From Candidatus Electronema aureum (GTDB taxonomy: Bacteria; Desulfobacterota; Desulfobulbia; Desulfobulbales; Desulfobulbaceae), in contig NQJD01000017.1 of the NCBI GenBank assembly GCA_004284765.1, positions 17,472 through 49,471 of the forward strand: a DNA stretch of 32,000 nucleotides, read 5' to 3'. Each line of letters starts with the position of its first letter. Position 1 is the stretch's first letter. Below, in pieces: positions 14,679-16,350 of this stretch. The translations under genes and the position numbers were made by a program. The notes under the pieces were generated by a model that ran no database searches, was not told the DNA's origin, and saw nothing but the letters and a program-made list of their open reading frames with translations.

Positions 14679-15548
14679 CTACTTGCATTTGTAAAATTTA
14701 CGAGCTTGATAAATGCAATGGTCTATATGAGCATCTGAGATGGATGCTCCTTCTGAATGTTCAAGATTGACGCGATACTGAATATATACTTCCAAAGATA
14801 AAGAGTAAGGCATTTCACCTTCAGCAGCCCTGCAGCGATGTGCCTCAATAAGTTGGAGAATACGCATCGGGGAAATATTTTTATTAAGACATTGCGCCCA
14901 AGATTCAACGATTGAAAATATAGTAGATTCAGGCAATCCCATTATAACTTCTATCGGCATTGAATCAATTACAGCAGGTGATACGTTAAACGACTTTGCA
15001 AAATTTGGATCATTAGCTAATCTTTGTTTAACTAATTCACGAATAAGGCTTTCTTTTGTTGGTTTTTTCTTTAAAATACCAAATAATGAATTTGATAATC
15101 TTGTAAAAACACTATATTTGTCCGAGATTAAATCTTTTGTCACGTAAACATTTGCAGTTAAGTGCAATATTTTACGCATAACGGCCAGTGCGTTAGCTTC
15201 AAACACCTCTAATTTTGCATATTCATTTGATGAGTCAAGGTTTGCATGACCAGATTCATCAAATACGCAAAGAAAAATATCATATCCTGCATCCTCTTCA
15301 AAATTCTGACCGAGCTGATCGGCGGCAATTTTCATAAAAGCAGGACTTAATATGCTCTGTTCTGCCGTAATATACATGATTGGCGAAGAATTATCTTTCT
15401 TCTGATATATTACTAATAGATAAAGATATTGTATTGGACCAAAACTTTCAGGGTCGCGCACTAAGACAGCCTGATATTCTCCACACTCATACGCTTTTAG
15501 TGCTGTGCCGCCAGAAATTAACGGAGCGGTTTCTCCTGGGTTAAGCAT
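14679..15548 (-). CDS. Hypothetical protein (289 aa), no recognisable domain; second gene of the AT-rich cassette
   Basis: Uninterrupted ORF in AT-rich DNA, where long random ORFs are unlikely. An AAGGAGAA SD lies upstream of ATG 15548. Confidence 0.6.
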   Translation of the reverse strand: MLNPGETAPLISGGTALKAYECGEYQAVLVRDPESFGPIQYLYLLVIYQKKDNSSPIMYITAEQSILSPAFMKIAADQLGQNFEEDAGYDIFLCVFDESGHANLDSSNEYAKLEVFEANALAVMRKILHLTANVYVTKDLISDKYSVFTRLSNSLFGILKKKPTKESLIRELVKQRLANDPNFAKSFNVSPAVIDSMPIEVIMGLPESTIFSIVESWAQCLNKNISPMRILQLIEAHRCRAAEGEMPYSLSLEVYIQYRVNLEHSEGASISDAHIDHCIYQARKFYKCK

Positions 15549-15603
15549 AATTTTCTCCTTAATGATTTTACTTGTCGTTCCACTGTGTGGAAAAAGAGAA
15601 CGC

Positions 15604-16314
15604 TTATTTTGTTGTTCTGCTAAGGTATTTAGAAATTTCTATATTTTCAATAAGTTTGCCGTAAACCTTAAAACTGTTATATTCTGTATGACCAGAATTT
15701 GAATATTCAAATATTACATACCTAAATTCTCTGTCTTCTCTGAATCGTTCATGCTTAGTAAAAAAGTCTTTAACAGAAAATGACTGTATCGGACGATTTT
15801 TGGATTGTCGATTTACAACTTGAATTTTTCGTGGAACATAATTTACCAATCCAAAATAGCACTTCATTCCGAATTGAGAATTATACTGCTGAGATAAAGA
15901 AGACATCAAAGCGCGACCGAACTGAACCGGATCAGTAATTTTGAAAAAAGTATCATATCCTAATCGTTTTGCTTTTTCAATGGAGGGTTGATGATCGTTA
16001 GAAACGCAATAAATAAAAGTATTAAAAGATGGCTGATCAAGCAATAAAGGCATTCCTTTCGGCAGGTTAATTTTCCATTCGTTCGTAATTTTGATTGAGC
16101 TATACGCAAGCAACGTATCGTTATCATTTTCTGATATGAGCATGTCGCCTTGTTCATTCAGGATAGCTGGAGTCGCGCACCCTTCTTCTGTGTCGCGCAG
16201 GGCTTCGTTCTCAATTTGTCTATACCGATCAAAAGTCCCTATAAATATTCTTCCTTTCTCAATAGCATCAACAAGGTGTTCTGTTTTGCAATATTTGACG
16301 AGGTTAAGTTCCAT
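15604..16314 (-). CDS. Hypothetical protein (236 aa), loosely DUF2971-like; first gene of the AT-rich cassette
   Basis: Uninterrupted ORF in AT-rich DNA. The N-terminal LVKYCKTEHLVDAIEKGRIFIGTF and C-terminal FFTKHERFREDREFRY resemble the ends of DUF2971-family proteins. This is weak and from memory only. Confidence 0.55.
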   Translation of the reverse strand: MELNLVKYCKTEHLVDAIEKGRIFIGTFDRYRQIENEALRDTEEGCATPAILNEQGDMLISENDNDTLLAYSSIKITNEWKINLPKGMPLLLDQPSFNTFIYCVSNDHQPSIEKAKRLGYDTFFKITDPVQFGRALMSSLSQQYNSQFGMKCYFGLVNYVPRKIQVVNRQSKNRPIQSFSVKDFFTKHERFREDREFRYVIFEYSNSGHTEYNSFKVYGKLIENIEISKYLSRTTK

Positions 16315-16350
16315 TAGATAAATTTCCTATAAAAAGTAAACGCTCTGTAT

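What the first reader, a model, noticed from the sequence alone, without database searches (positions are those of the whole stretch)
14679..16350. AT-rich two-gene cassette of unknown function in a TA-flanked hotspot: candidate undescribed defence or accessory system
Two co-directional ORFs make up the cassette: 236 aa at 15604-16314 and 289 aa at 14679-15548, with a 55-nt gap. The second has an AAGGAGAA SD.

The roughly 1.65 kb block has foreign composition. Hand counts give 16/60 and 24/60 G+C on lines 15001 and 15901, against 34/60 in adk.

The block starts directly after the displaced adk-3' relic hairpin, and its other end truncates a DUF4160 gene, so it is an insertion. Small toxin-antitoxin-like pairs flank it on both sides, which is the usual company of anti-phage islands.

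The first protein only loosely recalls DUF2971. The second resembles nothing I recognise. Neither has a signal peptide, TM segment or obvious catalytic motif.
Basis: partly seen in the sequence, partly recalled or inferred. Interest (0 to 1): 0.7.

Follow-up and report, generated by a model that had tools for sequence, protein, structure and literature searches.

The report
Two unrelated foreign genes, not a pair
The AT-rich block next to adk in this cable-bacterium genome is real foreign DNA, but its two genes are independent passengers: one is a distant relative of a known single-gene anti-phage family, and the other is a fused pair of widespread protein modules of unknown function.

Summary
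Two intact co-directional ORFs, A (236 aa, 15604-16314) and B (289 aa, 14679-15548), have 35-36% G+C in a 55% window. They sit between a duplicated adk 3' end with hairpin and a truncated DUF4160 gene.

The "two-gene cassette" reading is not supported. A occurs without B in six independent loci and has no conserved neighbour. B occurs without A in Ca. Electronema halotolerans, at the same adk site.

Between the two Electronema species, homology covers only the B ORF (91% DNA identity, ATG-4 to stop+2). The flanking core genes are 78% identical.

A belongs to a conserved solo-gene family found in defence islands: directly upstream of Avs4, inside a split BREX pglX, and beside GajB-like, WYL and HEPN-like genes. 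Pfam misses A, but a profile-profile test links it to DUF2971 (P=5.5e-4, 163 colinear columns, about 5 SD above nulls). It keeps the K...[D/E]xExR block. DUF2971 includes the validated abortive-infection gene Aristaios and is predicted to be ADP-ribosyltransferase-like.

B is a fusion of two modules, Bn and Bc. They are adjacent, overlapping genes in two other contigs. B is under purifying selection and has no known fold or family.

The parts
17091..17765 (-). adk (adenylate kinase), the core gene whose 3' end and terminator mark the insertion hotspot
   Evidence: Pfam ADK E=4.8e-41. It is 92% identical in protein to the E. halotolerans adk.
17048..17126 (-). Functional adk 3' end plus terminator hairpin; copy 1 of the 79-nt direct repeat
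   Evidence: the repeat finder family D1; sequence read.
16681..17064 (-). 127-aa toxin-like ORF (weak PBECR2/DUF4258-like match), part of an earlier insertion of about 700 bp
   Evidence: Pfam PBECR2 E=6.4e-4, below the gathering score. It is bracketed by the 79-nt repeat.
16436..16747 (-). DUF2283 small protein, the putative partner of the toxin-like ORF. The true start is probably the ATG at about 16696.
   Evidence: Pfam DUF2283 E=9.7e-6, 26.1 bits against a cutoff of 23; sequence.
16350..16428 (-). Relic copy of the adk 3' end plus hairpin; upstream boundary of the AT-rich block
   Evidence: 78% identical to 17048-17126. G+C drops immediately downstream of it.
15604..16314 (-). Gene A (CDV28_11739, 236 aa): a solo-gene family that is a distant relative of DUF2971 and a putative stand-alone defence effector
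   Evidence: 34 homologues. Matches phrog_13198 at 1.3e-11 and PADLOC PDC-S31 weakly. hhalign against 10 verified PF11185 proteins gives P=5.5e-4 over 163 columns, with clean controls. 9 of the 14 conserved DUF2971 columns are identical in A. Its neighbourhoods are defence islands.
15549..15603 (-). 55-nt A-B spacer carrying B's Shine-Dalgarno sequence (AAGGAGAA, 15553-15560). Homology with the E. halotolerans B copy starts at 15552.
   Evidence: No terminator-like site lies in the gap. One weak promoter-like site lies at 15593-15565.
15114..15548 (-). B, N-terminal module 'Bn' (aa 1-145): a beta-rich alpha/beta domain. Elsewhere it is stand-alone, carries a TM tail, or is fused to Sel1 or multi-TM regions.
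14679..15092 (-). B, C-terminal module 'Bc' (aa 153-289 plus stop): an all-alpha domain with invariant R176, E207, E235, R238, Y255, Y258, R259 and E263. Elsewhere it is mostly a stand-alone protein of about 135 aa.
14679..15548 (-). Gene B (CDV28_11738, 289 aa): a single-chain fusion of a Bn-Bc gene pair. It is shared as a precise single-gene unit with E. halotolerans.
   Evidence: Split, overlapping Bn and Bc genes in L016 and L017/L018. blastn gives 91.2% identity over exactly 15552-14677. dN/dS is 0.27-0.44 and dS is lower than for the core genes.
14525..14629 (-). Relic of a DUF4160 gene (last ~34 codons), truncated by the insertion; downstream boundary of the block
14253..14528 (-). DUF2442 small protein, the surviving partner of the truncated DUF4160 gene
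   Evidence: Pfam DUF2442 E=6.2e-13.

Best explanation
The 1.65-kb AT-rich block is a mosaic of two independently acquired single-gene cargoes in a recombination hotspot just after the adk terminator. It is not one system.

Gene A is a divergent member of the DUF2971 superfamily. That superfamily includes the validated single-gene abortive-infection system Aristaios and is predicted to have an ADP-ribosyltransferase-like fold. A most likely acts alone as a phage-triggered toxic effector. Its conserved site (K7/Y8, D41, E44, Y159, K187, D194-x-E196, R198) would modify a nucleic-acid or protein target and halt phage gene expression.

Gene B is a single-chain fusion of a translationally coupled gene pair (Bn + Bc). 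It moves on its own between Electronema genomes and is kept by selection. Its biochemical role is unknown. My best guess is a self-contained two-module accessory or conflict protein: Bn would be the constant module, and Bc would take the place that a membrane anchor takes in Bn's other relatives.

Shown: foreignness of the block, independence of A and B, the remote A-DUF2971 homology, A's defence-island neighbourhoods, and the Bn/Bc split-fusion relationship.
Inferred: that A provides defence, that it has ART chemistry, and any role for B.
For: Independence of A and B:
- A lacks B in L005, L006, L007, L008/L010/L011, L009 and L012 (profile scan).
- No ORF within 2 kb of A recurs across independent loci.
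- B lacks A in E. halotolerans.
- Window-to-E. halotolerans homology is 78% over hom-adk, but 91.2% over exactly the B ORF, 15552-14677.
- B's dS is 0.23, against 0.49 for adk and 0.80 for hom.
- The E. halotolerans island at the same site carries different cargo: a TM protein and a Type II restriction-modification pair, MTase_II 3e-133 and REase_II 5e-192.

A as a DUF2971 relative:
- hhalign of the A family against 10 PF11185-verified proteins gives P=5.5e-4, score 32.7, 163 colinear columns.
- Controls score far lower: reversed 15.8, unrelated 14-20, and 40 block-shuffles mean 16.6, sd 3.1, max 22.7.
- A Rhizobium plasmid protein links to both families: to A at probability 94.9%, P=4.6e-8, and to DUF2971 at P=7.4e-4.
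- 9 of 14 conserved DUF2971 columns are identical in A and 1 is conservative. All ten are invariant or nearly invariant within the A family.

A's defence context:
- Avs4 (2e-133) lies directly downstream of A, with HsdM nearby.
- In L007, A sits in an islet splitting BREX pglX, together with HEC-04 and PDC-M04A.
- In L005 it lies among GajB-like, DEDDh, HEPN-like and WYL genes.
- A genes have lower G+C than the host locus in 6 of 7 other loci, and the same in L009.

Literature:
- DUF2971 is predicted to be ART-like and related to DarT and AbiGi (PMC12522546).
- Aristaios is a single DUF2971 gene with an abortive-infection phenotype that interferes with phage transcription (PMC11381338 and PMC13064643).

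B:
- It has two modules that occur separately in 339 cluster representatives.
- Bn and Bc are adjacent genes with a 13-nt overlap in L016 and L017/L018.
- The structure model is confident, pLDDT 89.7.
- dN/dS is 0.27-0.44.
Against: For A:
- A does not reach PF11185 in hmmscan at E<=1, and neither does any of the 31 family members.
- The hhalign probability is only 30%.
- Four conserved DUF2971 positions differ in A (N39, W101 and Y104 of the 'MW..Y' block, and I135).
- A's structure model (pLDDT 72, with 66 residues below 50) matched no ART or any other fold by Foldseek in the PDB or BFVD.
- ART activity is itself unproven for DUF2971.
- Two A loci (L006, L012) have only housekeeping neighbours.
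- No phenotype data exist for A.

For B:
- There is no family, fold or informative fusion partner.
- Most Bn relatives have no Bc nearby, so the pairing is restricted to one clade.
- Any functional statement about B is a guess.

For independence:
- A and B are adjacent and co-directional with no terminator between them. Co-transcription and some local functional coupling in this strain cannot be excluded.
Confidence: 0.6

Rival explanations
1. One reading: A and B together form one undescribed two-gene defence or toxin-antitoxin-like system acquired as a unit.
For: The two genes are adjacent and co-directional, with a 55-nt gap and no terminator-like site between them. They have similar AT-rich composition. 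The adjacency is kept in a roughly 94%-identical relative, L021.
Against: - No co-occurrence is seen outside closely related Electronema contigs.
- E. halotolerans has B without A at the same site, with homology limited to the B ORF.
- A's relatives, and the validated DUF2971 system Aristaios, work as single genes.
Confidence: 0.07
2. In Electronema specifically, B has been recruited as an antitoxin, immunity protein or regulator for a toxic A, as a lineage-specific pairing.
For: A is predicted to be a toxic effector type, and DarT-like ARTs are usually neutralised by a partner. The genes are adjacent, and B has its own strong Shine-Dalgarno sequence.
Against: - A homologues elsewhere have no conserved partner.
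- B persists under purifying selection without A in E. halotolerans.
- B has no macrodomain or other known ART-reversing fold.
Confidence: 0.08
3. The block is inert cargo: decaying remnants of a mobile element with no current function.
For: The locus is littered with relics: the adk 3' duplicate and the truncated DUF4160 gene. No integrase or transposase lies next to the block.
Against: - Both ORFs are intact.
- B's dN/dS is 0.27-0.44, and A's C-terminal part has dN/dS of about 0.47 against L021.
- All A-family invariant residues are present in the window copy.
Confidence: 0.07
4. A is unrelated to defence. It would be a DUF2971-like protein with another role, for example a secreted or effector ART or a stress-related enzyme, as has been proposed for some Legionella DUF2971 members.
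For: PMC12522546 predicts that about 18% of DUF2971 proteins are effectors and describes non-defence operon contexts. Two A loci are purely housekeeping.
Against: - A has no signal peptide or secretion-system context.
- Three independent lineages place A among bona fide defence genes.
- The only experimentally tested DUF2971 protein is an anti-phage Abi gene.
Confidence: 0.18

Closest known systems
Aristaios (Lactococcus plasmid pUCCL641_199, 316 aa; DUF2971/PF11185) and the DUF2971 family in general
   Same: - A is a single gene with no conserved partner.
- It lives in a mobile or defence-island context.
- It is colinear with DUF2971 across nearly the whole protein in profile-profile alignment (P=5.5e-4).
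- It shares the N-terminal beta-strand 'L-x-[HK]-Y', the D..E of the 'NDPxE' block, the 'v-x-Y' strand and the C-terminal K-x3-[FW]-x2-[ED]-x-E-x-R block.
   Different: - A is not detected by the Pfam model.
- It is shorter (236 aa).
- It lacks the invariant N39 and the 'MW..Y' motif.
- It has an extra, poorly predicted insert of about 50 aa (residues 43-93).
- ExE has become DxE.
- No phenotype is known, and the fold was not confirmed as ART-like.
DarT (of DarTG) and AbiGi, ART-like toxins used in phage defence
   Same: The proposed chemistry and logic are the same: a toxic ART-like enzyme that stops phage replication or transcription. DUF2971 is reported to be sequence-similar to these families.
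   Different: There is no direct sequence or structure match between A and DarT or AbiGi in any search here. There is no DarG-like macrodomain or AbiGii partner.
PADLOC candidate PDC-S31 (single-gene 'phage defence candidate')
   Same: It is the only PADLOC model hit repeatedly by the A family (8 of 31 members, best E=9e-5). The match covers A residues 134-217, which include the C-terminal conserved block.
   Different: The hits are marginal and partial. PDC-S31 is itself uncharacterised, and no paper in the library mentions it.
Fused toxin-antitoxin defence proteins such as CapRel(SJ46) (comparison from my own knowledge, for gene B only)
   Same: Two modules are encoded by adjacent overlapping genes in some genomes and by one polypeptide in others. 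B's relatives also live in mobile or defence-island neighbourhoods.
   Different: B has no homology to any toxin or antitoxin family. There is no evidence of toxicity. Most relatives of each module occur without the other.

Membership tests
DUF2971 (PF11185) / Aristaios-type single-gene Abi | Match to the Pfam PF11185 model above its gathering score | tested here: not met
   No PF11185 hit at E<=1 for A or for any of the 31 family members. All ten comparator proteins do match it.
DUF2971 (PF11185) / Aristaios-type single-gene Abi | Superfamily-level homology across the domain (profile-profile) | tested here: met
   hhalign gives P=5.5e-4, score 32.7, 163 colinear columns. Reversed, unrelated and shuffled controls score at most 22.7. 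A Rhizobium intermediate links both families.
DUF2971 (PF11185) / Aristaios-type single-gene Abi | Conserved residues: Y on beta-1, NDPxE, MW..Y, v-I-Y, K...ExExR | tested here: inconclusive
   9 of 14 conserved columns are identical and 1 is conservative (E194 to D194). N39, W101, Y104 and I135 are not kept.
DUF2971 (PF11185) / Aristaios-type single-gene Abi | Acts as a single gene (no obligatory partner) | tested here: met
   No recurrent neighbour ORF across independent A loci.
DUF2971 (PF11185) / Aristaios-type single-gene Abi | ADP-ribosyltransferase-like fold | tested here: inconclusive
DUF2971 (PF11185) / Aristaios-type single-gene Abi | Anti-phage, abortive-infection phenotype | not testable with these tools
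   This needs cloning and phage challenge.
PADLOC PDC-S31 | Significant full-length match to the PDC-S31 HMM | tested here: inconclusive
   E=6.3e-4 for A, covering residues 134-217 only. 8 of 31 members hit it, best E=9e-5.
   A is found without B in six independent loci. B is found without A in E. halotolerans. They are adjacent only in near-identical Electronema contigs.
Type II toxin-antitoxin pair (for Bn-Bc) | Two small adjacent genes with start/stop overlap | tested here: met
   In L016 (1074-1535 and 1523-1936) and L017 (53-517 and 505-912) the two genes overlap by 13 nt.
Type II toxin-antitoxin pair (for Bn-Bc) | Homology of either part to a known toxin or antitoxin family or DNA-binding antitoxin domain | tested here: not met
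   No significant Pfam, NCBIfam, PADLOC, PHROG or PDB match.
HEPN RNase (for Bc) | Rx4-6H motif in an all-alpha domain with a HEPN fold | tested here: not met
   An R259-x4-H264 string exists. However, no HEPN structure appears among the Foldseek PDB matches for the pLDDT-90 model, and there is no HEPN Pfam hit.
DarTG | DarT-family toxin plus macrodomain antitoxin | tested here: not met
   No DarT or macrodomain match for A or B in Pfam, PADLOC, or the PDB by sequence or by fold.

The most novel reading that the evidence does not exclude
The adk hotspot of Electronema holds two separate, undescribed conflict genes.

(1) A represents a new clade of DUF2971-like, ART-type single-gene abortive-infection effectors. 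Pfam misses it and PADLOC gives only a marginal PDC-S31 hit. It repeatedly rides beside Avs4 and inside BREX.

(2) Bn-Bc is a previously unrecognised, widespread two-module system. The Bn module is combined either with a membrane anchor or with the Bc helical module. In cable bacteria it has been fused into one polypeptide that spreads as a precise single-gene cassette.
Probability: 0.2. Interest if true: 0.7.

Novelty: new variant of a known kind. Interest (0 to 1): 0.45.

Why it matters
If A is an active DUF2971-like effector, it extends a barely characterised defence family to a clade that Pfam misses and PADLOC barely registers. That family currently has one validated member, Aristaios, whose mechanism is unknown. 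A's conserved K/Y/DxE/R site gives a ready set of point mutants for testing ART chemistry.

The A-Avs4 and BREX-embedded contexts suggest it is a common but overlooked passenger of defence islands.

B defines two unnamed modules with hundreds of cluster representatives and a clear gene-pair-to-fusion relationship. That makes a wholly unknown family experimentally tractable.

The locus also documents a gene-by-gene turnover hotspot at the adk terminator in cable bacteria, organisms whose mobile elements and phage defence are little explored.

Tried and rejected
Searches that found nothing:
- Pfam, NCBIfam, PADLOC and PHROG scans of B gave nothing.
- Foldseek of both models against the PDB, and of A against BFVD, gave no match at E<=1e-3.
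- Profile searches of both families against PDB sequences gave only noise.
- tblastn of A and B against the phage and plasmid collections at E<=1e-3 found nothing.
- Viral-contig scans for A, Bn and Bc found nothing. I therefore dropped the idea that either gene is phage-borne.

Ideas considered and rejected:
- Bc as a HEPN domain, because of an Rx4H string. There is no fold or profile support.
- B as a restriction-modification controller, because it sits just upstream of a Type II methyltransferase in E. halotolerans. It has no HTH, it is too large, and the window has no restriction-modification genes.
- B as a macrodomain-type antidote to A. The fold does not match.
- The Rhizobium plasmid protein as a direct sequence bridge to DUF2971. 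HMMER gave only 12.8 bits and Pfam found nothing. hhalign later showed it is a genuine intermediate.

Technical failures:
- Two alignments were too diverse for locus finding.
- One script had an offset and indexing bug. Its dN/dS value and residue map are void and were replaced.
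Full report
**Source and observation**

The window matches Candidatus Electronema aureum, a cable bacterium. A is 100% identical to CDV28_11739 and B to CDV28_11738.

Both ORFs lie on the minus strand at the stated coordinates, separated by 55 nt. AAGGAGAA lies just upstream of B's ATG. G+C is 0.35 for A and 0.36 for B, against 0.55 for the window.

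- A 79-nt direct repeat (16350-16428 and 17048-17126, 78% identical) is a duplicate of the adk 3' end plus its terminator hairpin. It brackets a DUF2283/PBECR2-like pair.
- At the other end, only about 34 C-terminal codons of a DUF4160 gene remain (about 14525-14629). They overlap the start of an intact DUF2442 gene. The peptide hits annotated DUF4160 genes at E down to 2e-4.

**A and B are not a unit**

A has 34 homologues at 53-100% identity, from Electronema, Ca. Schekmanbacteria and many metagenomes. B has only five, four of them from Electronema.

Contexts of six independent A loci were recovered: L005, L006, L007, L008/L010/L011, L009 and L012. None contains a B-like ORF by tblastn or by profile scan. 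No ORF of any kind within 2 kb of A recurs across these loci. The only cross-locus matches are alternate-frame fragments of A itself and the shared Avs4 locus of L008/L010.

Conversely, Ca. E. halotolerans carries B (88% protein identity) downstream of its adk but has no trace of A.

blastn sharpens this. The hom-adk core is 78% identical between the two species. Homology then stops at the adk hairpin and resumes only over the B ORF, from 4 nt before the ATG to 2 nt after the stop (15552-14677), at 91.2%.

B's synonymous divergence (dS 0.23) is 2-3.5 times lower than that of adk (0.49) or hom (0.80). This points to more recent lateral exchange of B alone.

The E. halotolerans island is about 4 kb with 33-43% G+C. 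Its other cargo is different: a CyanoTRADDas_TM protein, small ORFs and a complete Type II restriction-modification pair, followed by rsgA. A third Electronema-like contig, L021, keeps A-B but diverges 30 bp after B.

The adk terminator is therefore a hotspot with gene-by-gene turnover.

**Gene A**

The family is tightly conserved, with 69% mean column identity and many invariant charged residues. It has no Pfam or NCBIfam match. It matches the uncharacterised phrog_13198 at E=1.3e-11 and the PADLOC candidate PDC-S31 marginally (8 of 31 members, best E=9e-5).

Its neighbours are repeatedly bona fide defence genes:
- An Avs4 (E=2e-133) lies 95-117 bp downstream in L008/L010/L011, with HsdM, Prim-Pol and HNH nearby.
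- In L007, A lies in a 5-kb islet that splits a BREX pglX, together with HEC-04 (7e-58) and PDC-M04A.
- In L005 it lies among GajB-like helicase, DEDDh, HEPN-like, WYL, RadC, ArdC and RecT genes.
- Two loci (L006, L012) are purely housekeeping.

A genes have lower G+C than the host locus in 6 of 7 other loci; L009 shows no difference.

**Testing the DUF2971 lead**

The literature now treats DUF2971 as an ADP-ribosyltransferase-like family related to DarT and AbiGi (PMC12522546). A single DUF2971 gene, Aristaios, is an experimentally validated lactococcal Abi-like system that interferes with phage transcription (PMC11381338 and PMC13064643).

To test the link, I fished real DUF2971 genes out of the annotated plasmid collection with a short consensus-like bait. 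I fetched ten from seven bacterial classes and confirmed that all ten match PF11185.

hhalign of the A family against this set gives P=5.5e-4, score 32.7 and 163 colinear columns covering A residues 1-203. The controls score far lower:

| Comparison | hhalign score |
|---|---|
| A family vs DUF2971 | 32.7 |
| Reversed alignments | 15.8 |
| Unrelated alignments | 14-20 |
| 40 block-shuffles of A | mean 16.6, sd 3.1, max 22.7 |

A Rhizobium plasmid protein was found through a weak tblastn hit and lies next to DUF4238 and Schlafen-like genes. It is a firm A-family relative (probability 94.9%, P=4.6e-8) and independently matches DUF2971 (P=7.4e-4).

Residue mapping shows that 9 of the 14 most conserved DUF2971 columns are identical in A: Y8, D41, E44, G119, V157, Y159, K187, E196 and R198. 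One more is conservative (E194 to D194, so ExE becomes DxE). All ten are invariant or nearly so within the A family. N39, I135 and the 'MW..Y' pair are not kept.

I therefore place A in the DUF2971 superfamily as a divergent clade outside the Pfam model. I infer, but have not shown, an Aristaios-like stand-alone effector role.

**Gene B**

An exhaustive HMMER search found 339 cluster representatives at E<1e-3. They split cleanly into matches to residues 1-145 (module Bn) or to residues 153-289 (module Bc). Among the top 150 hits, 100 are Bc-only and 44 are Bn-only. The only Bn-then-Bc proteins in the set are the four Electronema ones.

Neither module has a Pfam family. Fusion partners are mostly unknown sequence, plus Sel1 repeats, membrane domains (DUF4328, DUF2569) and one dienelactone hydrolase. 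About 17 of 40 Bn relatives carry a TM-like tail.

In the closest relatives (53-60% identity), Bn and Bc are separate adjacent genes with a 13-nt start/stop overlap, in L016 and L017/L018. B is therefore a fusion of a translationally coupled pair.

More distant Bn genes have no Bc nearby. They sit near transposases, XRE/toxin-antitoxin-like genes, an integrase islet with Thoeris-like genes, or a PD-(D/E)xK-like plus WYL-like pair.

The B model is confident (pLDDT 89.7). It has a beta-rich alpha/beta N-domain, a flexible linker and an all-alpha C-domain. It has no meaningful PDB match by fold (best E 0.047 at TM 0.12) or by sequence profile.

dN/dS of 0.27-0.44 shows that B is functional. Its role remains unknown. 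HEPN, macrodomain and restriction-modification controller ideas were considered and found unsupported.

**Verdict**

The two-gene system is not supported.

What is there is a mosaic of two independent single-gene cargoes:
- A is a new, Pfam-invisible variant of the DUF2971/Aristaios kind.
- B is an unclassified fused two-module protein.

Confidence levels:

| Claim | Confidence |
|---|---|
| A and B are independent | about 0.85 |
| A is a DUF2971 superfamily member | about 0.7 |
| A is a defence gene | about 0.5 |
| A has ART chemistry | about 0.3 |
| B has any specific role | low |

Noticed in passing
window 11172-11672 (-): A second small AT-rich islet (G+C about 0.40) lies next to gatA. It encodes a 166-aa protein with N-terminal hydrophobic segments and two zinc-ribbon motifs (UPF0547 E=1.3e-6; phrog_8032 E=4e-9). 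It looks like another foreign single-gene insertion.
   Followed up: partly
window 19795-21027 (-): A 410-aa ORF with a hydrophobic N-terminal segment (possibly a signal peptide), built of about eight tandem ~45-aa repeats (…GTPYVAYxD…KASVMKFNGTSWEQVGAAGFSAG…). It looks like a secreted repeat or propeller-like protein.
   Followed up: no
L007 951-9630: A BREX pglX appears split into a 567-aa N-terminal part and a 584-aa C-terminal part (PglX E=6e-205). The split is caused by a 5-kb islet carrying a DUF3800/PDC-M04A gene, HEC-04, a membrane protein, the A homologue, a 232-aa ORF and a pEK499_p136 gene. This is a defence islet nested inside a defence gene.
   Followed up: partly
L016 1500-1560; L017 480-540; L022, L025, L026 Bn genes: Stand-alone Bn proteins end in '…GFWRRLWGG'. 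This nearly repeats the N-terminus of the downstream Bc protein ('MGWLSxLFGG'). In other Bn relatives the same FW motif ('RAFWSYRLLLYV…') leads straight into a TM helix. The motif may be a membrane-proximal or amphipathic element shared by the alternative C-terminal partners.
   Followed up: partly
L001 6860-10972 (Ca. E. halotolerans): The same adk-terminator site carries a different AT-rich island of about 4 kb: a CyanoTRADDas_TM protein, small ORFs, B, and a complete Type II restriction-modification pair (MTase_II 3e-133, REase_II 5e-192). The core gene rsgA follows.
   Followed up: yes
L031 1-2092 (Agrobacterium fabrum pAt): A bona fide DUF2971 gene sits immediately downstream of qatC-qatD of a Qat anti-phage system. 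Other DUF2971 genes fetched here lie next to RelE/ParE, PIN/RHH toxin-antitoxin genes or an integrase (L033, L037, L038). This is further circumstantial support for a defence or mobile-element role of the family.
   Followed up: no
L030 2494-5777 (Rhizobium leguminosarum pRLb1): The remote A-family relative (252 aa) is flanked by a Schlafen/AlbA_2-like 'ATP-binding protein' and a DUF4238 gene. The cluster may be another small defence cluster. The annotated start of the A relative (locus position 4079) seems to lie 26 codons too far downstream, because the conserved 'LYKY' strand begins at 4001.
   Followed up: partly
window 16681-16747: The listed 103-aa DUF2283 ORF (TTG start) overlaps the upstream toxin-like ORF by 67 nt. 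The Pfam match starts at residue 24, and an ATG at about 16696 (MAEKLIFKYD…) gives a more plausible protein of about 86 aa with a short overlap, typical of toxin-antitoxin pairs.
   Followed up: no
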